Shown here: piece after piece, positions 3,375 through 10,641 of the stretch
Numbering within the stretch: position 1 is the first letter of the stretch
Layout of the letters: every line of letters starts with the position of its first letter
Virus record (IMG/VR): IMGVR_UViG_3300024252_000005
DNA length: 64,000 nt
Reading direction: 5' to 3' (one strand)
DNA from: a virus
Lineage: Duplodnaviria > Caudoviricetes
Program-made: the position numbers and the translations under genes
Notes under the pieces: model-generated
Database searches by the model: none
Told to the model about the DNA's origin: nothing
The model's input: the letters and a program-made list of their open reading frames with translations, nothing else

Positions 3375-3830
3375 ATGTCTTATAATAAATATAAAAACTA
3401 TAATGCTGGAACTACGACTAATAGTTCAACTCAAACAACAACAACAGCGGGTATTGTAGTTAATGGTTTAACCTTTAGCTATATACCTGCAAAGAACTCT
3501 AGTGAAGTTATTTTTGAATACAGCTTTTATGCTGAAAAAAATAACGGTATACCTTTTATACATACTGAGATCGAATACTCAACAGACAACGGCTCATCTT
3601 TTACTAACATTGGAGAAAAATATAAAATGTATAGCTGCTCTGGGCCTTATAATAATTTCTATATACACTATAGAGTTTTATGTAAACTATCGTCATGGTC
3701 AGGTGAAAGAATAATTAGAGTTAAAGCTTTTGAGCATAACTATAGCAGCACAACTAATGTTGCAATACTTCACTATATTTCTGACTTGTCTGAATATATT
3801 AATACAAATTATATTATCTATAGCGAGTAA
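3375..3830 (+). CDS. small beta-rich virion-like protein, triplet member 2
   Basis: MSY start; VIFEYSFY and STDNGSSF echo members 1 and 3. Confidence 0.65.
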   Translation: MSYNKYKNYNAGTTTNSSTQTTTTAGIVVNGLTFSYIPAKNSSEVIFEYSFYAEKNNGIPFIHTEIEYSTDNGSSFTNIGEKYKMYSCSGPYNNFYIHYRVLCKLSSWSGERIIRVKAFEHNYSSTTNVAILHYISDLSEYINTNYIIYSE

Positions 3831-3834
3831 ATTA

Positions 3835-4287
3835 ATGTCATATGATTCAAGCCTTCCTATAAATTATCAAATTATTGAAACTGTAAATTCTTCTACACAA
3901 AGTGTATCAAACTCTTCTGTTGAATTAGAAGGTTCTAAAATAGATTATAATTTTTCAATGGGAAACTTTGTTGTATATAAATTTAGTTTTTATATGAATT
4001 GTGATGGAACTTATACATCATCTATATTTAAACTAGAAACTTCTACAGATGATTCCAGTTGGAATCATATTACGGGATGCTCGCTTTTAATTGGCGATGA
4101 TCGAGCAGCTGAAAACCAAAAAACAAATGTTAATATTTTTTTTGTTATTCCTGCTAGTAGTATTTCTAGATACTTAAGAATTGTAGGTTATTCAAAATCT
4201 GCTTCAACTAGTTTTACACTATTTCAAAGTTCATTTGAAGGAACAAACAGATACATAAATTCAATATTAGAAGTATTTACTATTTAA
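3835..4287 (+). CDS. small beta-rich virion-like protein, triplet member 3
   Basis: ATG at 3835 (MSYDSS) follows the previous stop; the track start 3730 overlaps the upstream gene. Confidence 0.65.
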   Translation: MSYDSSLPINYQIIETVNSSTQSVSNSSVELEGSKIDYNFSMGNFVVYKFSFYMNCDGTYTSSIFKLETSTDDSSWNHITGCSLLIGDDRAAENQKTNVNIFFVIPASSISRYLRIVGYSKSASTSFTLFQSSFEGTNRYINSILEVFTI

Positions 4288-4288
4288 A

Positions 4289-4444
4289 TACCATCAACAG
4301 AGATCAAACCGGTACAGCCATAAATACTCCGAGCGGGATTCGAACCCGCAAGCCATAAGGCGCCTGATTTTAAGTCAGGTTTGTCTACCAATTCCAACAT
4401 CAGAGTTAATAATTTACTGCGTCTGCCTATTCCGTCATGGTGGC
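4289..4444 (-). pseudogene. degenerate tRNA-Leu-type gene split around the intact tRNA-Leu
   Basis: 5' half GCCACCATGACGGAATAGGCAGACGC (4444-4407); 3' half TTATGGCTGTACCGGTTTGATCTCTGTTGATGGTA (4324-4289); acceptor strands GCCACCA/TGATGGT pair at 6 of 7. Confidence 0.65.
4325..4406 (-). tRNA. trnL: tRNA-Leu(UAA)
   Basis: Acceptor ACTCTGA/TCGGAGT, anticodon arm CCTGA-CTTAAAA-TCAGG, long variable arm, GGTTCGAATCC; CCA not encoded. Confidence 0.92.
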
Positions 4445-4600
4445 TTGATTAATGTCATGTTTATGCCAGTCAGGATTACAAATAGTACACCAATTATCAC
4501 ACTTCTTGCAACCGTATATCTCTTGTACGCCTTTGACACACTCATGCAAGAAAAAATCATAAGTTTTTTTGCACTTTTTACATTTTGATTTTTTGCTCAT
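4427..4600 (-). CDS. small Cys-rich (CKKC x2, CxxC) protein, 57 aa
   Basis: Translated by hand: MSKKSKCKKCKK...CKKCDNWCTICNPDW...QATMTE*; not in the ORF track. Confidence 0.55.
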   Translation of the reverse strand: MSKKSKCKKCKKTYDFFLHECVKGVQEIYGCKKCDNWCTICNPDWHKHDINQATMTE

Positions 4601-4618
4601 GAATAATATTAACCTTTA

Positions 4619-4691
4619 AGCTAATGATGGGACTCGAACCCAGAACCTCTTGTTTACAAATCAAGAGCTCTGCCAATTGAGCTACACCAGC
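4619..4691 (-). tRNA. trnT: tRNA-Thr(UGU)
   Basis: GCTGGTG/CATTAGC acceptor, loop TT-TGT-AA, GGTTCGAGTCC; one anticodon-stem mismatch. Confidence 0.9.
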
Positions 4692-4814
4692 ATGTTCTTG
4701 TTTAGATTATATATTTACATATTCATATTGTTAATTTTTTTTGTTCTTATGTAATTAATCTCCTTTTTTATTATTATAATATTAAATTAAACTATTTACA
4801 CATGAGGAAAATGC

Positions 4815-5351
4815 ATGAGAAATAAACCTAATCAAATATCTTGGGATGATGGTAATAGACTATACAGCTTAGAGACTAAAGATATAATACATGTACTTGT
4901 TAGTAATGATGTTCAAGTAAAAAATATCTCTCCAGCTGGTTCATTAAGAAGAAAAAGACATAAAGTTGGAGACTTAGACATTGTAATAGAGGTAGATAAT
5001 CCTAAATTGGCAGGTAAAATACTAGAAGACAAAATGAATTATAATTTTATTGCTAAAAGCTCTTTTTACAAAGGTAAAATTCTTAATACAGGCGTTGACT
5101 TATTTGTTGCAGGCCATCACGATTATTACGCTATGCTATTTTTCTTAACTGGTTGTGAAGATTGGAACTTAAGAATTATGAAATATTTAAAAAACAATAC
5201 TGATATTAGATACACACCATTTCAGTTTATTAATAGTAAAAACAAAAAAGTGTATAAGTTTAACTCAGAAAAAGAAATATTTAAACTAATTAATCATAAT
5301 TATGTATTACCAGTAAATAGAAAACCTAACTACGTAAAATTTGGAGATTAA
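4815..5351 (+). CDS. polX: minimal X-family DNA polymerase (PolX palm + C-terminal domain)
   Basis: AGSLRR..VGDLDIV, GVDLF, LFFLTGC..WN, SEKEIF..YVLPVNR; 178 aa. Confidence 0.85.
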   Translation: MRNKPNQISWDDGNRLYSLETKDIIHVLVSNDVQVKNISPAGSLRRKRHKVGDLDIVIEVDNPKLAGKILEDKMNYNFIAKSSFYKGKILNTGVDLFVAGHHDYYAMLFFLTGCEDWNLRIMKYLKNNTDIRYTPFQFINSKNKKVYKFNSEKEIFKLINHNYVLPVNRKPNYVKFGD

Positions 5352-7541
5352 ATGAAGTTATTAAGAGAACACTATAAAGAGCTGTTAAACGAAGAAATTG
5401 ATTATTCTTCAAAGTTGGCAACAGTATATCATCTTACAGGATTTAAAACTGAACAATATGATTCTGTTTACGCAAAACTTAAAAAGAAAACGCCTAAAGA
5501 CCTTGAAGGTGAGATTGATGCAAAATATAGCTCAAAGCCAAAGTCTAGAGCACAGAGTATTTTATCTAAAACTGAGTACAAAGCAGGACTTAAAAATTTA
5601 AAAAAATACAAAACATCAGCAGGACAAGCTTATCATATAGCAAGAAATATTAGCAATAATTTATTTGATGTAGGAAGTTATTTTCAAGCAGGCGGTGGTG
5701 CAGCATACGGATCAGGTCTTTACACTTGTTATAGATTAAATCCAAAAATAGCGCAGAATTACGGTAACGTTATTTTAAGGTTTGATGTAGACATATCAAA
5801 CTTTTTAATATTCAATGAAGGAATAGCAAGAAAAATACACGGTAATGATCATTATAAGTTAGACGACCAATTTATGCAAATTCTTAAAAGAAAAGGATTT
5901 AATCTTCGCGGACACTACGAATACTCTGATTCTGTAGAAATGTCGGACGACGCTGAAGAGAACTTAGGTGACTATATTGCTTTGCTCGATCAAATGTCTT
6001 CTTCTGATGCTTTTAAGAATAGTGATTTTAATACAGACGTAAGAACAGCAGATATGGCAAATCATGCTTTGTATGAATTTAGCAAGAAATTTAAAAACGG
6101 CAGTGCTTTAAAACTAAGAGATATCATTGATGGTGTTATATTTTATGGTTATAGTGACGGCCCTGTTTGTGTAATATATCACCCAGAATCTCTAGGAACT
6201 TATAAACTTACAGGTGCAGGTTATTTTAAGAATGGTCGGCCTGTAATAGAGTCAGACATAGAAGCTTTAGTAGGTAGAACAGGAAGAGATCTCGCAAATT
6301 CTTTTCAAACTTCACAAGAACTAGATCAAGATGCTCAAGAGCGAGCTGAAGAAAGAAATCAAAGATTTAAAGATGTTCTTACAAATTACGAAATAAACTC
6401 AAAAACTTCAGAAGAAGAGTTTATCAACAATATTCCTTCAGAACTTACTAGCATTATTGAACCCTTAAGACTGGTACTTGAAGATAATATTCCTGAAGAT
6501 ATTATGATAGAAAGGTTAAGCTCAACTACCAACTGGGATAAATTCTTACAAGGCATGGCAGATTCATATCATTACATTCAATGTATTGTTTCTATACTTG
6601 CTGAGCCAATGTTAAAATTTATTGAACATTTTGGCCCAGGTTTGGAAATAATTAGTGAGGACGAGTTTAAAGAATATTTTAAGTTATTTAAACAATATGC
6701 ACAAAATAAAACTTCTAATGCACCAAAGCTTGCAGATTTTGAGTCTAGAGGTTTGAAGTGTGTAGCACAAAACGAAGAGGAGTTTTCTAATCTTGTTGAT
6801 CAACATTTAGGAAGTCTTATTGAGAATTATAATACAATGTTAAGAGATCAGATAGGCGCATATTTTGTTGACTTCGTAGTTGCAGCCATGTTTGACGGTG
6901 AGACCAGTAGCATTAATAATTCTATTGGCAGATGTACTTTGGATACAATTGATATCAATACTGACAATGATAAAAAAGTTATCGAGAAGCACATGTCAGT
7001 TATTAACAACATACTTTCTAACGTACAAAGCAAGTTAATTGAATTTATTACAAAAACAATACCGGAAAATGTACAATCTGATGAAGGCAAAAATGCAGTT
7101 CGAATAGCATTCAGACATGTAGACGCTTTTGATGAAAATGGCAACATTTTTCTTGATGAGATTATTGAAAGATATGGCTGGTATTCTGATTGGTGTCACG
7201 CTGGTACTGAGTTATTTTATACTATACATGAAACTTTTAACGTAGGTTCTTTCGATGCTTTCACTAGTGAATTAAATTCTTACAAAATTGACAGAGAAAA
7301 ATTTGATCCTGAATTCATACTTCATGAAATGTATGAAGTTCCTAATAATAATTTATTAGGTGATGTATCTGGCTTAGTTCTAGTAATGTTTAAAAACGGC
7401 AAGGATGTCTATAAAAGAAACAACATAATGTCAACTGAATATCTATATAAACAAATTCTTGAATCAAAAGCAACTAATGTAGCATATGCTGTTCAAGAAC
7501 AATTTTATGTAGGCTCGCCTGGGGGAAGCATTGATATTTAA
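5352..7541 (+). CDS. large protein with N-terminal ADP-ribosyltransferase-like motifs; probable virion cargo
   Basis: VYH..G and G..YGSGLY motifs typical of H-Y type ART folds; leader-like MKLLREHYKELLNEE. Confidence 0.55.
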   Translation: MKLLREHYKELLNEEIDYSSKLATVYHLTGFKTEQYDSVYAKLKKKTPKDLEGEIDAKYSSKPKSRAQSILSKTEYKAGLKNLKKYKTSAGQAYHIARNISNNLFDVGSYFQAGGGAAYGSGLYTCYRLNPKIAQNYGNVILRFDVDISNFLIFNEGIARKIHGNDHYKLDDQFMQILKRKGFNLRGHYEYSDSVEMSDDAEENLGDYIALLDQMSSSDAFKNSDFNTDVRTADMANHALYEFSKKFKNGSALKLRDIIDGVIFYGYSDGPVCVIYHPESLGTYKLTGAGYFKNGRPVIESDIEALVGRTGRDLANSFQTSQELDQDAQERAEERNQRFKDVLTNYEINSKTSEEEFINNIPSELTSIIEPLRLVLEDNIPEDIMIERLSSTTNWDKFLQGMADSYHYIQCIVSILAEPMLKFIEHFGPGLEIISEDEFKEYFKLFKQYAQNKTSNAPKLADFESRGLKCVAQNEEEFSNLVDQHLGSLIENYNTMLRDQIGAYFVDFVVAAMFDGETSSINNSIGRCTLDTIDINTDNDKKVIEKHMSVINNILSNVQSKLIEFITKTIPENVQSDEGKNAVRIAFRHVDAFDENGNIFLDEIIERYGWYSDWCHAGTELFYTIHETFNVGSFDAFTSELNSYKIDREKFDPEFILHEMYEVPNNNLLGDVSGLVLVMFKNGKDVYKRNNIMSTEYLYKQILESKATNVAYAVQEQFYVGSPGGSIDI

Positions 7542-7759
7542 TCTTCAAATGCGATTTTGATATCATTATAAGGATCATTTGTATTTGCATAAAACAATGC
7601 TAGTTTACCTTTGTCGTTCAATAAACGAAAAACGCACTTACAATAGAAGCCATTCTCAACTTCTTTATGTATAACCAAATGAACATTGTTGTTTTTGCCT
7701 TTCTCATAGTTCATTCCTGTAATTTCTACTAAGTCACCAACTTTTATTTGGCCATACAT
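7538..7759 (-). CDS. small hypothetical (KOW/SH3-like) protein
   Basis: MYGQIKVGDLVEI start at 7759. Confidence 0.5.
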   Translation of the reverse strand: MYGQIKVGDLVEITGMNYEKGKNNNVHLVIHKEVENGFYCKCVFRLLNDKGKLALFYANTNDPYNDIKIAFED

Positions 7760-7849
7760 GAAATAAAAACTCGATATACTTTTGAAATTAAATTTATGTG
7801 AATCATAGAATGATAATAGCAAAAAGTATTCTAAGAAGGAAATTTATTA

Positions 7850-7999
7850 ATGAAAAATAATAATGTATTGCAAAGATATATTGAAAATATTCTATTAGAA
7901 ATAGCATCAATTGGAAAACAATCTAACTTTAAGCTAGAAGAAGAAATAGAAAGTCTTGAAAGAAGACTAATTCATATGCAAACGCATGAGAATTATTAG
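7850..7999 (+). CDS. 49-aa peptide with leader-like LQRYIENILLE
   Basis: AAGGA SD, hand-translated ORF. Confidence 0.45.
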   Translation: MKNNNVLQRYIENILLEIASIGKQSNFKLEEEIESLERRLIHMQTHENY

Positions 8000-8003
8000 T
8001 TAA

Positions 8004-8024
8004 CACACTAGACAGGACTTGAAC
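8004..8024 (-). other. orphan tRNA T-loop/acceptor fragment
   Basis: GTTCAAGTCCTGTCTAGTGTG directly after the split-tRNA 3' half. Confidence 0.45.
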
Positions 8025-8063
8025 ACGCCTATCTGGACTCGAACCAGAACTCTTGGGCTTAAG
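8024..8063 (-). pseudogene. 3' half of split tRNA (partner at 9058-9091)
   Basis: CTTAA-GCCCA-AGAGT-TCTGG-TTCGAGT-CCAGA-TAGGCGT-G; TAGGCGT pairs 7/7 with GCGCTTA at 9091. Confidence 0.75.
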
Positions 8064-8150
8064 CACCTCCTGGAGGATTCGAACCTCGCACTCTCCAATT
8101 CCCCTATATTAATGAGACCGGCTTAGAAGGCCAGTGGGGATGCAGAAGGC
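8064..8150 (-). tRNA. atypical tRNA-Arg(UCU)-like element with rearranged D-arm
   Basis: Acceptor GCCTTCT/AGGAGGT, arm CTGGC-CTTCTAA-GCCGG, GGTTCGAATCC; no canonical D-arm; 23-nt insert after the anticodon arm. Confidence 0.55.
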
Positions 8151-8226
8151 ATATAACAATATTATTATTTTTTTGTTTATTGTTAAATTATTTTTGCATT
8201 AACATTGATCTAAGCATATTTATTAT

Positions 8227-9057
8227 ATGTTCAAGTTGAGGATAAATATGTATTGCAATAAATGTGAAAAAGAGATACCCAAAAAAGAAGCTGGTAATCA
8301 TAAAAGATGGTGTGGAAATAAAAAAACTATTAAAGATTCTTACTGTAAGATATGTAATTCTCCAATAAAAAACACAAGAACAAACTCAGTTAGAAAATAC
8401 TGTGCTAGAGAATGTTTTAACAAAGGAGTATATACTAAAGAGTTTAAACAAAAAATATCTAATAGCAGAAAAAAATATCTTAAGGAAAACCCTAACAGTC
8501 ATCCTTGGTGTAAAGAAAACAAATTTAAGTCTGCGCTAAAGAAGTTTCTTAAGGAAAATAATATAGACTTCATTGAAGAGCACCAGCCTCTGAAAGATAG
8601 ATTTTTCTCTATTGATATTGCCATACCAGAAGTTATGTTTGGAATAGAAGTAAATGGTGAGCAACATTATAATAGGGATAAAACTCTTAAGAAATATTAT
8701 CAAGAAAGACATAATTTAATTAAAGCACAAGGTTGGGTGATATATGAGATTCACTACTCTAAAGTTTATGACGATATTTTTTTATCGAGTTTAATTGAAA
8801 GAATAAGAAAAAATAATTTTAATAACTTTACAATAGACTTTGAGTTACGTAAAAACAAAGTTAAAAGAAGAAAAAATGTAAAGGAAGTCTCTCTAAAGCA
8901 TAAAGAAGAAAAAGCTAAAAAGTTGCTTGAAACAAGATTAGAACATATTAGTAAGGCTGAAAAGAATTGGGGTTGGATTTCCAAAGCTTCTCGAGATCTA
9001 GATATAAGTCATACTCATGTAAGAAGGCTCGTAAACAAGTATCTTTCTGATGCGTAA
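8227..9057 (+). CDS. free-standing homing-type endonuclease, Vsr/DUF559 (EDxHD-like) with Zn-finger, NUMOD3-like and HTH modules
   Basis: CNKC/CKIC/YCAREC, KQKISNSRKKYLKENP, IDIAIP..GIEVNGEQHY..RHNLIKAQGW.I; likely start ATG 8248. Confidence 0.75.
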   Translation: MFKLRINMYCNKCEKEIPKKEAGNHKRWCGNKKTIKDSYCKICNSPIKNTRTNSVRKYCARECFNKGVYTKEFKQKISNSRKKYLKENPNSHPWCKENKFKSALKKFLKENNIDFIEEHQPLKDRFFSIDIAIPEVMFGIEVNGEQHYNRDKTLKKYYQERHNLIKAQGWVIYEIHYSKVYDDIFLSSLIERIRKNNFNNFTIDFELRKNKVKRRKNVKEVSLKHKEEKAKKLLETRLEHISKAEKNWGWISKASRDLDISHTHVRRLVNKYLSDA

Positions 9058-9091
9058 AGGCCCCTGCTTTATCCTATTAAGCTATAAGCGC
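9058..9091 (-). pseudogene. 5' half of split tRNA (ends at U33)
   Basis: GCGCTTA-TA-GCTT-AATAGGATA-AAGC-A-GGGGC-CT; abuts the endonuclease stop codon. Confidence 0.75.
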
Positions 9092-9095
9092 TGAA

Positions 9096-9141
9096 TAGAT
9101 CTTTAATCAGAATTACTATTATTCTTTATATTAAAGATCTA
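9096..9141. repeat. 12-bp inverted repeat spacer between tRNA elements
   Basis: TAGATCTTTAAT ... ATTAAAGATCTA. Confidence 0.7.
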
Positions 9142-9143
9142 AA

Positions 9144-9216
9144 TGGGCACCCTGGGATTTGAACCCAGAATCGACGCTTTATGAGAGCGCTGCCTTAACC
9201 CTTTGGCCAGATGCCC
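9144..9216 (-). tRNA. tRNA with CAU anticodon (Ile2 or elongator Met)
   Basis: GGGCATC/GGTGCCC acceptor, GCGCT-CTCATAA-AGCGT, GGTTCAAATCC; lacks initiator hallmarks. Confidence 0.9.
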
Positions 9217-9256
9217 ATATAAGACCTTTTTGCTCTAACTACTGGGCTATAGGCCC
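9217..9256 (-). pseudogene. orphan tRNA 5' half (Ile2/Met-like) fused to the CAU tRNA
   Basis: GGGCCTATAGCCCAGTAGTTAGAGCAAAAAGGTCTTATAT immediately before +1 of the intact tRNA. Confidence 0.6.
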
Positions 9257-9317
9257 GTTAAAGGTGCTAAAAGCACCTAGATAATTATATAATCAAACTT
9301 TTAAAAGTTTAACAATA

Positions 9318-9704
9318 TTAACGTGGAGATACAACAAAAGTTTGATTATTAACTTGGTATGTATTAGTAATTCCTGAAGAATTGTAATTTTGTGCAACTT
9401 GCTGAATCCTTCTCAATTGATCATTAATTCTATGAAGCTTGATAAAACTCCCATTATTAGGCTTTCGATAATTAACACATGTATACTTAGATCGATTACG
9501 TGTTGTAGTTGTAGTTGTGCTGTTGTTTGACGCTGTTACAATCTTTTCATTAGTCTTAATAATTCTATTAATAGTTCCATTCCTGTTTGCTGAGTAATAA
9601 ACGCCTGGGTTCTGTGTATCCATAAACATCATTGTACCGTTGCTAATCTGGCGAACTGTTGAAGTCTCAATAAAACGATTTGTGTCAAAATTTGTGTTTC
9701 CCAT
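9318..9704 (-). CDS. early protein, paralog family A
   Basis: FIETSTVRQ..GTMMF..YYSA..GTINR resembles 15307 and 28829. Confidence 0.6.
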   Translation of the reverse strand: MGNTNFDTNRFIETSTVRQISNGTMMFMDTQNPGVYYSANRNGTINRIIKTNEKIVTASNNSTTTTTTRNRSKYTCVNYRKPNNGSFIKLHRINDQLRRIQQVAQNYNSSGITNTYQVNNQTFVVSPR

Positions 9705-9759
9705 AAAATGTACCTTTCTTATGGTGTTGAAATATTTGGGTTACTTAGCACTTACTATA

Positions 9760-10062
9760 TTATAGTAAATCTAAGTCAGAAGAACGAATAAATATGAATT
9801 CGCTCTCATCGGAATCATCTACGACAATAGTGATTCCACCTATTGAAAACAATAAGCACTTAAAACTTTTTTTACTTTTAGCAAAATAAATAGTTCCTAT
9901 CTTATTAGCAATATTCATTATCTTGCTATAAGATTCAATATTCTCTTTGCTATTTTCAATACAAACAATATCTTCTATATTTGATCTCAAGATAGAAGAT
10001 ATTTCTTTTGTCAACATATGCTTTTTATTCTGGATATTGTTTTTGTTTTTGCTAATATTCAT
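9760..10062 (-). CDS. hypothetical early protein
   Basis: ORF downstream of the promoter copy at ~10131. Confidence 0.6.
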   Translation of the reverse strand: MNISKNKNNIQNKKHMLTKEISSILRSNIEDIVCIENSKENIESYSKIMNIANKIGTIYFAKSKKSFKCLLFSIGGITIVVDDSDESEFIFIRSSDLDLL

Positions 10063-10335
10063 TTTTTTCTTTAAAAAGCATGTTGTTTTAATTTATATTA
10101 TTATTATATAATGTGATTCAAATATTTACACATTATATAATAATTAATTTTTCTTAGCTAAACTCTTTCCCTTAATGTGCAACGGCTTGTCAGAAAAGTC
10201 AATGTACTGAATATTGTTATTCATTTCTGAATATTCTTTGTATGATAATACAATACCCATCGATGTAAGCATTATTAGTGATGATAAATAATACGTAACT
10301 AACTTGTTTTTCATTTTTATTCTTTCTATGTAGAT

Positions 10336-10641
10336 TTAATCAATGCTGTTAAGATTGTCAATATGAAGCTGTAGAATATCGTTCCAATAAAATTCTTCTT
10401 GTCCTGACCCAAAATTGACTACAGTAATTTCTGCAGAGCCATAGTCTATTTCAAATGTATACTTAATCTCACTATCAGAAACAATTTCTGTATAAAAGTA
10501 TTCTGGTAAATCATTATTTTCAAAAGTCTCGCTAGACATATTAACGTTAAATCTTTCTTCTAACTCTGGAATAATAAACAATGCTCTTTTTTTAATATCC
10601 ATTTTATTCTTAACCCTTTTGTCTTGAATGATATATATCAA
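10336..10641 (-). CDS. hypothetical acidic protein
   Basis: ORF in operon. Confidence 0.55.
   Translation of the reverse strand: MIYIIQDKRVKNKMDIKKRALFIIPELEERFNVNMSSETFENNDLPEYFYTEIVSDSEIKYTFEIDYGSAEITVVNFGSGQEEFYWNDILQLHIDNLNSID

What the first reader, a model, noticed from the sequence alone, without database searches (positions are those of the whole stretch)
8024..9091. tRNA split exactly at U33|34 by a ~1-kb antisense endonuclease cassette
The 5' half (9091-9058) and 3' half (8063-8024) form a complete cloverleaf when joined: acceptor 7/7, D-stem GCTT/AAGC, stem GGGGC/GCCCA, loop CT-CTT-AA (Lys CUU anticodon on an Arg-like body with GGAUA D-loop and G73). The 994-bp insert is a Vsr/EDxHD-like endonuclease on the opposite strand plus a tRNA-Arg-like element. 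Both halves look intact rather than decayed, which raises the possibility of RNA-level rejoining. The junction is exon-U / insert-G like group I introns, and 33|34 is also the PrrC cut site (established), yet no group I core is visible. This is a candidate intron-less homing element that targets tRNA genes and carries a replacement tRNA.
Basis: partly seen in the sequence, partly recalled or inferred. Interest (0 to 1): 0.82.

Follow-up and report, generated by a model that had tools for sequence, protein, structure and literature searches.

The report
Endonuclease cassette carrying rewired tRNA-Arg
A selfish DNA-cutting-enzyme gene has split this marine phage's arginine tRNA gene in two and brought along its own, oddly wired replacement arginine tRNA, a tRNA design that standard tools miss but that recurs in many phages next to such enzymes.

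Summary
The two halves are real and join into a clean cloverleaf. They are the relics of a tRNA-Arg(UCU) gene, not tRNA-Lys(CUU). Related contigs (L002, L003) and seawater reads hold the unbroken gene, whose anticodon loop reads CTTCTAA.

In the window, 995 bases (8062-9056) replace C35. The insert holds an intact Vsr/I-Bth0305I-like homing endonuclease gene on the + strand, a 97-base spacer, and an 87-base tRNA-Arg(UCU)-like gene (8064-8150, - strand).

RNA rejoining is not supported:
- Rfam finds no intron core in the insert.
- Relatives carry mismatched, truncated or decayed halves.
- The joined form in reads is the intact DNA allele.

The 87-base RNA is conserved, and every helix covaries. 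It has an 8/4 acceptor/T branch, normal anticodon and T loops, and a D stem whose two strands lie on either side of the anticodon arm. The same design occurs in at least 68 distinct viral sequences, including cultured phages that encode its CCA end. It lies next to endonuclease genes of several families more often than ordinary tRNAs do.

More distant relatives of the enzyme sit beside tRNA-Arg(UCU) genes that carry a group I intron at the same 34|35 site.

Best reading: intron-less homing with a replacement tRNA. This scan noted similar cassettes on other DNA. I found no paper describing them.

The parts
9057..9091 (-). 5' relic of the resident tRNA-Arg(UCU) gene: acceptor, D arm, anticodon stem 5' strand, and loop bases C32 T33 T34. 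T34 (9057) doubles as the first base of the complement of the endonuclease stop codon.
   Evidence: 97.5% identical to the 5' part of the intact gene in L002. ARAGORN cloverleaf. The read joint ends at 9057.
8248..9057 (+). Homing endonuclease gene, 269 aa from the ATG at 8248, which is preceded by GAGGA (an upstream in-frame ATG at 8227 gives 276 aa). N-terminal zinc-ribbon-like CxxC pairs, central Vsr-like nuclease domain, C-terminal helix-turn-helix.
   Evidence: ORF. Weak Pfam MTES_1575/RAP matches. 180 homologues, some named very-short-patch-repair endonuclease by their source. AlphaFold model with pLDDT 86. Foldseek matches to 3r3p, 3hrl and 1vsr. It carries every position that is invariant across the 38-member family alignment A3.
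8151..8247 (.). AT-rich spacer with two divergent sigma-70-like hexamer pairs. TTAACA/TAATAT on the - strand lies 8 nt upstream of the tRNA-like gene. TTAACA/TATTAT on the + strand lies upstream of the endonuclease gene.
   Evidence: Consensus scan (the number of sites is not above chance). The - strand hexamers are kept in L001, L004/L021, L006, L015 and L024. The spacer is 87-89% identical in close relatives.
8064..8150 (-). 87-nt noncanonical tRNA-Arg(UCU)-like gene. It has an 8-bp acceptor stem and a 4-bp T stem (12 bp in all), the T loop TTCGAAT, and a 5-bp anticodon stem with loop CTTCTAA. TCCCC (before the anticodon arm) pairs with GGGGA (after it). GGGGA is followed by a D-loop-like AATTGGAGAG. 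The discriminator is G and no CCA is encoded.
   Evidence: Not found by ARAGORN or Rfam tRNA. 8 close copies: 100% of 176 pair cells are standard pairs and 4 pairs are compensatory. 12 copies including cultured phages: 99.6% paired, 13 of 22 pairs compensatory. 68 distinct viral copies: 95% paired.
8024..8063 (-). 3' relic of the resident tRNA-Arg(UCU) gene. 8061-8024 run from T36 to the discriminator. 8063-8062 (CT) are junction bases that vary among relatives.
   Evidence: 100% identical to L002:1606-1642. The junction reads CTT, ATT or CTC before AAGCCC in relatives. The read joint starts at 8061.
8003..8023 (-). Stub of the T loop and acceptor 3' strand of yet another tRNA gene. It resembles the 3' end of the tRNA-Thr that follows the cassette in L008.
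   Evidence: Read directly from the sequence. Not tested further.

Best explanation
A mobile cassette sits in the anticodon loop (34|35) of this marine phage's tRNA-Arg(UCU) gene. It consists of a free-standing Vsr/I-Bth0305I-like homing endonuclease gene and, read divergently, a structurally rewired tRNA-Arg(UCU) gene of its own.

Inferred mechanism. In a mixed infection the enzyme cuts the intact tRNA-Arg(UCU) gene of a cassette-free phage at or near the anticodon loop. Repair copies the cassette from the carrier genome. The resident gene is left as two dead halves, and the cassette's tRNA supplies AGA decoding.

The cassette tRNA keeps the acceptor/T helix, the T loop, the anticodon arm, the G18-G19-A20-like motif and a D stem. 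The segment 'D-stem 5' strand plus D loop' has changed places with 'D-stem 3' strand plus anticodon arm'. The RNA can therefore probably still fold as an L, while the DNA on both sides of the anticodon loop no longer looks like a tRNA gene to the enzyme. The rewired tRNA would thus do the job that a self-splicing group I intron does in relatives of the same enzyme family.

Shown: the insertion, the empty allele, the recurrence of the cassette in several tRNA genes, the fold of the enzyme, the covariation and spread of the RNA, and its enrichment next to endonuclease genes.

Inferred: cleavage by the enzyme, immunity of the rewired gene, and aminoacylation and use in translation.
For: Empty allele
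- The intact tRNA-Arg(UCU) lies at the orthologous place in L002 and L003.
- Alignments of the window, L021 and L024 to L002 break at L002 1601-1606, which is the anticodon loop.
- In seawater run X4 the intact form (joint 8061->9057 with one base between) coexists with pieces of the endonuclease gene.

The cassette travels
- Endonuclease and element are found together in the window, L001, L015, L006/L007 and L008-L014 (55-86% aa identity).
- The flanking tRNA halves differ among these: acceptors GCATCCT, GCACCTA/TAGGTGC and GCGACTT/AAGTCGT.
- In L004/L021, L023 and L024 the endonuclease gene is lost but the element is kept, and the 5' half has decayed in L004/L021 and L024.
- In L025 the element stands alone in a tRNA cluster.

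The enzyme
- Model pLDDT 86. The best compact fold match is the I-Bth0305I catalytic domain, followed by Vsr.
- Distant family members (L016, L017, L020) lie directly upstream of tRNA-Arg(UCU) genes that carry a group I intron, read as CTT|intron...G|CTAA.

The RNA
- The element is 86-94% identical where the endonuclease gene is 65-84% identical.
- All substitutions in helices keep pairing.
- The D-stem-equivalent helix reads TCCCC/GGGGA, TCCCT/AGGGA, CCAAC/GTTGG, CCCAC/GTGGG or CCCTC/GAGGG.
- CCA follows the discriminator in Salicola phage SCTP-2, Vibrio phage pv27 and a Melvirus phage.
- There are 81 model matches in the first 100 of 117 or more viral loci.
- Those loci hold 521 canonical tRNAs but only 4-5 canonical Arg(tct).
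- The 211-kb relative has no canonical tRNA-Arg(UCU).

Link to endonucleases
- At least 24 of 84 ORFs beside rewired copies are HNH, GIY-YIG, EndoVII or Vsr-like. About 8 of 127 ORFs beside canonical tRNAs in the same loci are (Fisher p 2e-5).
Against: - There is no experimental or RNA evidence. The two RNA libraries laid did not cover the element.
- The element's own anticodon region (GGCCTTCTAAGCC) is identical to 13 bases of the presumed target. Immunity must therefore rest on flanking sequence, which is untested.
- Cleavage specificity is unknown. The promoter hexamers are weak and not above chance by count.
- Covariation counts on model-fitted alignments lean towards the model. The 117-locus set was retrieved with a pattern that fixes TGGA and the T loop.
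- A competing pairing of the linker with the D-loop-like stretch (CTCAYYA with TGGAGAG) is not excluded.
- The enrichment next to endonuclease genes does not correct for relatedness among loci.
Confidence: 0.65

Rival explanations
1. The insert behaves as an intron. The two tRNA halves are rejoined at the RNA level by a cryptic ribozyme, or by processing at the tRNA-like element followed by an RNA ligase, to give a working tRNA.
For: In this window the halves pair perfectly. The element's discriminator abuts the 3' half, so a tRNA 3'-processing cut would fall at the junction. Relatives of the enzyme do accompany true group I introns at this site.
Against: - Rfam finds no group I or II match in the insert even at E up to 10, while the same search finds the introns of L016 and L017.
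- Joining gives CTCTTAA or an 8-base loop, not the native CTTCTAA.
- Halves in L001 and L015 cannot pair with each other, the L006 5' half stops in the D loop, and the L004/L024 5' halves are decayed.
- Loop bases of the 3' relic vary freely.
- The joined form in reads carries C35 and stands in a DNA run.
Confidence: 0.04
2. The cassette and the relics are as described, but the 87-nt RNA is not a translating tRNA. It is a tRNA-like RNA with another role: a decoy for host anticodon nucleases, a regulator or cofactor of the endonuclease, or a processing signal.
For: It lacks a canonical D arm and is missed by tRNA finders. Its tight linkage to endonuclease genes of several families could reflect a direct functional tie to them. 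Phage tRNAs are known to counter tRNA-targeting defences (established knowledge).
Against: - The anticodon loop [C/G]TTCTAA is kept in the 12 copies found through the endonuclease or by BLAST. The G-G-A motif at the place of G18-G19-A20 is kept in the 4 BLAST-found phage copies, where no search pattern imposed it; A20 and C35 are the bacterial ArgRS identity elements (established knowledge).
- The acceptor/T branch is 12 bp, and CCA is encoded in three cultured or complete phages.
- It fills the otherwise empty Arg(UCU) slot in large phage tRNA clusters.
Confidence: 0.2
3. There is no site-specific homing. The arrangement is a by-product of ordinary illegitimate recombination among the many similar tRNA genes of phage tRNA clusters, and the endonuclease gene is an unrelated or dead passenger.
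For: These clusters are full of tRNA stubs and chimeras. Cleavage has not been shown.
Against: - The same junction (CTT | stop codon ... discriminator | 35) recurs in at least four different host tRNA genes.
- The ORF is intact and has every position that is invariant across the 38-member alignment A3.
- Distant relatives sit beside introns at the very same tRNA position.
- Intact and occupied alleles coexist in one sample.
- Endonuclease genes are enriched beside rewired tRNAs.
Confidence: 0.1

Closest known systems
I-Bth0305I, prototype of the EDxHD homing endonucleases (Bacillus phage 0305phi8-36 recA group I intron; PMC3239194)
   Same: Phage homing endonuclease with several domains and a Vsr-like catalytic domain. 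It is the best compact structural match (3r3p). Its long footprint of about 60 bp would fit recognition that reaches beyond the anticodon arm.
   Different: I-Bth0305I is encoded inside a self-splicing intron of a protein gene. This enzyme is free-standing, antisense, inside a split tRNA gene with no intron. There is no significant sequence similarity to any PDB chain. Here the nuclease domain is central, flanked by zinc ribbons and a C-terminal helix-turn-helix. The EDxHD residues were not mapped.
Phage T4 SegB, a free-standing GIY-YIG homing endonuclease of the tRNA gene cluster (PMC2330249)
   Same: A free-standing endonuclease in a phage tRNA cluster that recognises conserved tRNA-gene sequence and drags neighbouring tRNA genes along during co-infection.
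   Different: SegB lies between tRNA genes, belongs to another nuclease family, and recognises the T-arm motif. It does not split a tRNA gene or bring a structurally altered replacement.
Collaborative homing of a free-standing endonuclease with an ORF-less group I intron (F-CphI and the cyanophage psbA intron, PMC6083498; mobE and I-TevIII, PMC2790892)
   Same: Distant relatives of this enzyme (L016, L017, L020) show this layout: the endonuclease gene directly upstream of a tRNA-Arg(UCU) gene whose group I intron occupies the presumed target site.
   Different: In the window the protecting and function-saving role of the intron is taken by a separate replacement gene, and the target gene is left dead.
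Allo-tRNAs and other 8/4 tRNAs of bacteria and phages (Mukai et al. 2017, PMC5389517)
   Same: A 12-bp acceptor branch split 8/4 instead of 7/5. These tRNAs occur in phage tRNA clusters and are missed by ordinary searches.
   Different: Allo-tRNAs keep a D arm like that of tRNA-Sec and have a long variable arm. Here the D-stem strands lie on either side of the anticodon arm, and there is no conserved variable hairpin (the linker is only 7 nt in SCTP-2). One subtype of the rewired family is 7/5.
D-armless mitochondrial tRNA-Ser(AGY), and permuted or split tRNA genes of Cyanidioschyzon and Nanoarchaeum (established knowledge; reviews PMC4013460, PMC3400036)
   Same: They depart from the cloverleaf or from gene collinearity. 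No hairpin precedes the anticodon arm.
   Different: Mitochondrial forms have lost the D-loop contacts, whereas this RNA keeps a D stem and a GG-A loop in a new order. Permuted and split genes are processed into canonical tRNAs, whereas here the mature chain itself would be rewired.

Membership tests
EDxHD / Vsr-like homing endonucleases | Vsr-like (PD-(D/E)xK-related) nuclease fold | tested here: met
   The AlphaFold model (pLDDT 86) matches 3r3p with TM 0.75 by target and probability 1.0, and also matches 3hrl and 1vsr. Pfam MTES_1575 and RAP matches are weak and below their cut-offs.
EDxHD / Vsr-like homing endonucleases | Conserved E, D, H, D catalytic residues | tested here: inconclusive
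   The family alignment A3 has invariant D123, E134, N136, G137, Q139 and H140. I did not map these residue by residue onto I-Bth0305I.
EDxHD / Vsr-like homing endonucleases | Cleaves the empty allele next to its own insertion site | not testable with these tools
   The empty allele is identified (L002:1570-1644). A cleavage assay is needed.
Group I intron | Catalytic core (P3-P9) recognisable by covariance model | tested here: not met
   No RF00028 match in 3500-10500 at E up to 10. The same model scores 54.6 and 48.7 bits in L016 and L017. Only 163 nt of the insert are non-coding.
Canonical tRNA (Rfam RF00005) | Four-arm cloverleaf with a D hairpin between acceptor and anticodon arms | tested here: not met
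   No ARAGORN or Rfam hit at 8064-8150. Only CA plus TCCCCA lie between the acceptor and anticodon stems.
Canonical tRNA (Rfam RF00005) | 12-bp acceptor/T branch, T loop TTCRANY, 5-bp anticodon stem, 7-nt loop with U33 | tested here: met
   Structure counts on A2, A5 and A6.
Canonical tRNA (Rfam RF00005) | 3' CCA end and aminoacylation | tested here: inconclusive
   CCA is encoded after the discriminator in L026, L028, L029 and many IMG/VR copies but not in the window. The window's canonical tRNA-Met also lacks CCA. Charging cannot be tested here.
Allo-tRNA (8/4, 9/3) of Mukai et al. | 8/4 or 9/3 acceptor branch together with a long V arm and a tRNA-Sec-like D arm | tested here: not met
   8/4 is met. 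No D hairpin is present. The linker is too short for a V arm in L026.
Free-standing homing endonuclease element | Occupied and empty alleles at one orthologous site, with intact flanks | tested here: met
   L002 against the window, L021 and L024. Both forms are present in run X4.
Free-standing homing endonuclease element | Biased inheritance after cleavage in mixed infection | not testable with these tools
   This needs a cultured carrier and a cassette-free relative.
Split or permuted tRNA genes whose pieces are rejoined as RNA | The pieces are conserved as a matching pair across relatives | tested here: not met
   Halves are mismatched or decayed in L001, L015, L006, L004/L021 and L024.

The most novel reading that the evidence does not exclude
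The swapped-D-arm tRNA-Arg(UCU) is a working tRNA with a chain topology not described for any tRNA. It has spread through phages because its gene cannot be cut by endonucleases that recognise canonical tRNA-Arg genes. Homing endonucleases of at least four unrelated families use it as a portable replacement gene. This would be a general alternative to self-splicing introns and inteins for invading an essential gene.
Probability: 0.4. Interest if true: 0.9.

Novelty: new variant of a known kind. Interest (0 to 1): 0.8.

Why it matters
Homing endonucleases are thought to enter essential genes only when a self-splicing intron or intein hides the damage. This cassette suggests a third way: kill the gene and bring a cut-proof copy.

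The copy is itself remarkable. If it is charged and used on the ribosome, the L-shaped tRNA core can be built from a chain threaded in a different order. That bears on tRNA evolution, on what processing enzymes, synthetases and the ribosome really need, and on the design of orthogonal tRNAs.

There is also a practical point. ARAGORN and the Rfam tRNA model did not report the window's copy, and the copies looked at in four deposited phage genomes are not annotated as tRNA. Phage codon-usage and tRNA-complement analyses may therefore under-count tRNA-Arg(UCU).

Tried and rejected
- INPHARED blastn with 7000-10500 found no match.
- IMG/VR was searched with the flanking 729-aa protein. It found no relative, so the phage itself has no close relative there by that route.
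- Rfam in E-value mode over 3500-10500 found no intron or other RNA family in the insert.
- A PDB sequence search with the endonuclease found nothing meaningful, and NCBIfam found nothing.
- Single-sequence folding of the element alone gave z-scores near zero and was uninformative. Covariation was decisive instead.
- I considered the element as tRNA-Sec-like, as a tRNA-Ser-type class II tRNA with a long variable arm, as a tmRNA-like domain, and as a remnant of an intron 3' end. I rejected these because the anticodon is fixed as UCU, the linker is short in some members, and the D-loop-like G-G-A is conserved.
- I first thought that the Arg 3' half 'travels with the cassette' because L001 has a foreign 5' half. 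I revised this after finding different 3' halves in L006 and L008. Chimeric flanks are better read as footprints of homing into, or recombination between, non-identical tRNA genes.
- RNA evidence was sought in two RNA libraries (X23, X24). Their contigs did not cover the element or show a spliced form beyond the intact allele, so they say nothing about expression.
- ARAGORN's intron mode mislabels the intron-bearing tRNA-Arg genes of L016, L017 and L020 as Ser or Val, because it takes intron bases into the anticodon loop. I used the rule that a group I intron ends in G instead.
- Complex prediction was not used, because no protein-protein claim is made.
Full report
**What is there**

On the - strand the window reads, in order:
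- a 34-nt tRNA 5' part (9091-9058);
- the reverse complement of an 810-830-nt ORF;
- a 97-nt AT-rich spacer;
- an 87-nt tRNA-like stretch (8150-8064);
- a 40-nt tRNA 3' part (8063-8024).

ARAGORN accepts the joined halves as a 74-nt tRNA and, with long introns allowed, finds them in place with a 994-nt insert. The window is an uncultured marine phage. It encodes PhoH, helicases and structural proteins. It has no DNA match in INPHARED, and the runs that hold it are seawater metagenomes.

**Which tRNA, and where exactly it is broken**

Scanning IMG/VR for the 3' half found the unbroken gene in two contigs, L002:1570-1644 and L003:5199-5272. It is tRNA-Arg(UCU) with the loop CTTCTAA. The 'Lys CUU' reading arises only because the junction is not clean.

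L002 is syntenic with the window, L021 and L024. Their alignments to L002 break at L002 1601-1606, the anticodon loop.

Seawater contigs laid on the window give one joint, 8061->9057 with a single base between, which restores CTT-C-TAAG. That joint stands in a DNA run (X4) that also holds pieces of the endonuclease gene. Three things follow:
- 8062-9056 (995 nt) replace C35.
- The site is 34|35, and T34 is shared with the stop codon of the ORF.
- Empty and occupied alleles coexist in nature.

**No intron, no rejoining**

Rfam at E up to 10 finds no group I or II match in the insert. The same library finds group I introns in related loci.

In relatives that carry the same cassette, the halves do not form a pair:
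- L001 and L015 combine the Arg 3' half with foreign 5' halves that cannot pair with it.
- The L006 5' half stops in the D loop.
- In L004/L021 and L024 the endonuclease gene is gone and the 5' half has about 8 changes in 34 nt.
- The loop bases of the 3' relic read CTT, ATT or CTC.

The halves are relics. Their good state in this window points to a young or recently converted copy.

**The enzyme**

The ORF is 269 aa from the ATG at 8248, which has a GAGGA ribosome-binding site. It has 180 homologues at E up to 0.001, and some are named very-short-patch-repair endonuclease by their source. It carries every position that is invariant across the 38-member family alignment A3.

The AlphaFold model (pLDDT 86) has these parts:
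- N-terminal zinc-ribbon-like hairpins;
- a central alpha/beta domain, whose best compact Foldseek match is the catalytic domain of the homing endonuclease I-Bth0305I (3r3p, TM 0.75 by target), followed by ngo0050 and Vsr;
- a C-terminal helix-turn-helix.

I-Bth0305I footprints about 60 bp (PMC3239194).

**Where the enzyme family lives**

- Close relatives (55-86% aa identity) are always antisense inside a split tRNA gene. The left junction is always CTT | stop codon. The host genes differ: Arg(UCU), a gene with acceptor GCACCTA/TAGGTGC and a TTAA-type loop, and a gene with acceptor GCGACTT/AAGTCGT.
- L019 (53% identity) has the enzyme alone inside a Lys-like tRNA gene.
- Relatives at 40-46% identity (L016, L017/L018, L020) lie on the same strand directly upstream of tRNA-Arg(UCU) genes that carry a group I intron. 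Rfam RF00028 scores 54.6 bits in L016 and 48.7 bits in L017; in L020 the intron rests on sequence likeness only. I read these genes as CTT | intron ending in G | CTAA, the same 34|35 site.

That last layout is the known 'collaborative homing' arrangement of a free-standing endonuclease with an ORF-less intron (PMC6083498, PMC2790892). The whole family therefore appears specialised on this spot in tRNA-Arg/Lys-type anticodon loops.

**The 87-nt element**

The element accompanies the endonuclease in every close relative. It outlives the endonuclease in L004/L021, L023 and L024. In L025 it stands alone in a tRNA cluster. It is more conserved (86-94% identity) than the spacer (68-89%) or the endonuclease gene (65-84%).

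Its eight close variants have no indels. All 176 pair cells form standard pairs, and four pairs show compensatory double changes.

The fold has four parts:
- an 8-bp acceptor stem (GCCTTCTG with CAGGAGGT) stacked on a 4-bp T stem, with the T loop TTCGAAT;
- a 5-bp anticodon stem with loop CTTCTAA;
- a 5-bp helix between TCCCC, just before the anticodon arm, and GGGGA, 13 nt after it;
- after GGGGA, the stretch A-A-Y-T-G-G-A-G-A-G-T-G-Y, which reads like a D loop (A14, R15, Y16/17, G18, G19, A20, A21) followed by the last variable-loop bases.

The tRNA-Arg(UCU) genes of the relatives have the D loop AACAGGATA. A20 and C35 are the main bacterial ArgRS identity elements (established knowledge).

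In tRNA terms the order [10-21][22-43] has become [22-43]-linker-[10-21]. TCCCC is continuous with the 5' strand of the anticodon stem, as 22-26 are in a normal tRNA. GGGGA is followed by the D loop, as 10-13 are. My inference is that the chain can trace the usual L-shaped core with three reconnections: 8 to 22, 43 to 10 through the linker, and 21 to 45-48. I wrote this reading down before I saw that other first-stage notes on this window say much the same.

**The design is widespread**

- blastn of the element against INPHARED found unannotated homologues in Salicola phage SCTP-2, Vibrio phages pv27, phiTY18 and phiKT1024, a Melvirus phage and Vibrio phage 424E50-1.
- Their D-stem-equivalent helices read CCAAC/GTTGG, CCCAC/GTGGG and CCCTC/GAGGG. 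Three of them encode CCA right after the discriminator.
- With these added, 13 of 22 pairs are compensatory and 99.6% of cells pair.
A covariance model built from the close copies matches 81 sites in the first 100 loci. 68 of them are distinct, 95% of cells pair, and all five D-equivalent pairs covary.
- Caveats: that alignment is fitted to the model, and the scan pattern fixes TGGA and the T loop.
- The set includes an 8/4 subtype like the window's and a 7/5 subtype.
- Those loci hold 521 canonical tRNAs but only 4-5 canonical Arg(tct). The 211-kb relative of the window has none.

The rewired gene therefore occupies the Arg(UCU) slot.

**Link to endonucleases**

I took ORFs of at least 110 aa within 350 nt of a rewired copy. 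Of 84 such ORFs, Pfam tallies HNH_2 in 11, HNH_3 in 7, HNH in 4, SegE GIY-YIG in 2 and Endonuclease VII in 1. Ten more match the Vsr-like family by phmmer. The HNH tallies may overlap, so the minimum is 24 of 84.

Of 127 ORFs beside canonical tRNAs in the same loci, at least 1 kb away from the rewired copy, about 8 are endonuclease-like. Fisher p is 2e-5 for the minimum count. This test does not correct for relatedness among loci.

**Most likely mechanism**

The enzyme cuts intact tRNA-Arg(UCU) genes. Repair copies the cassette into the break. The resident gene dies, and the rewired tRNA replaces it. Later the endonuclease gene decays (L004, L024) while the replacement tRNA has to stay.

Because the element's anticodon region is identical to 13 bases of the target, its immunity must come from the rearranged flanks. 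That would explain why a rewired tRNA, rather than an ordinary one, is the partner. Cleavage, immunity and charging are all inferred.

**Comparison and novelty**

The parts are known kinds: Vsr-like homing endonucleases, free-standing endonucleases in phage tRNA clusters (SegB, PMC2330249), collaborative homing, and 8/4 tRNAs (PMC5389517). I found no paper on a homing cassette that carries a replacement tRNA, or on a tRNA with swapped D-arm segments. The library searched is incomplete.

Earlier unchecked notes of this scan describe similar cassettes on other DNA, including an HNH gene fused to a rewired tRNA-Arg(UCU) in a Pseudomonas phage. This window is therefore a further, independent instance with a different nuclease family. 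It adds a clean empty allele and a direct comparison with intron-bearing relatives.

Noticed in passing
window 4289-4444 (- strand): The intact tRNA-Leu(UAA) (4406-4325) seems to lie inside the two halves of a dead Leu-type tRNA. Upstream is a Leu-like 5' part ending in ...GCAGTAAATT. Downstream are TTATGGCT, a decayed T arm and TGATGGT, which pairs 6/7 with ACCATGA. No endonuclease gene lies inside. A small zinc-finger ORF (about 4600-4430, - strand) overlaps the outer 5' part.
   Followed up: partly
window 9220-9257 (- strand): A tRNA 5' fragment (acceptor GGGCCTA, D arm GCCC/GAGC, loop-like CTTATAT) runs straight into the complete tRNA(CAU) at 9217-9143. It looks like another tRNA gene overwritten at its anticodon loop.
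   Followed up: no
L002:360-1240 (+), and L004 about 4737-4093 (- strand): Other zinc-finger plus Vsr-like endonuclease genes lie between tRNA genes of related contigs, on the same strand as the tRNAs. They are surrounded by several tRNA stubs, for example a broken Asn-like gene in L002. These clusters look like graveyards of repeated endonuclease-driven replacements.
   Followed up: no
L026 (Salicola phage SCTP-2, MF360958 about 331404-331483); L028 (Vibrio phage pv27, OR413349 about 88358-88443); L029 (PQ867846 about 1854-1938); L027 (OX241437 about 129800-129883): Rewired tRNA-Arg(UCU) genes in deposited phage genomes are unannotated or overlaid by short 'hypothetical protein' calls.
   Followed up: partly
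window 9092-9142: Between tRNA-Met and the 5' relic lies an inverted repeat, AGATCTTTAAT ... ATTAAAGATCT. In relatives a tRNA-Lys(UUU) gene occupies this place. The repeat could be a hairpin or the scar of a deletion.
   Followed up: no
L087 and L041 (IMG/VR loci): A few pattern hits are not members of the rewired family, for example sequences with a TTTCTAA loop and no matching acceptor stem. The raw count of 117 therefore overstates membership. 81 sites in the first 100 loci passed the covariance model.
   Followed up: partly
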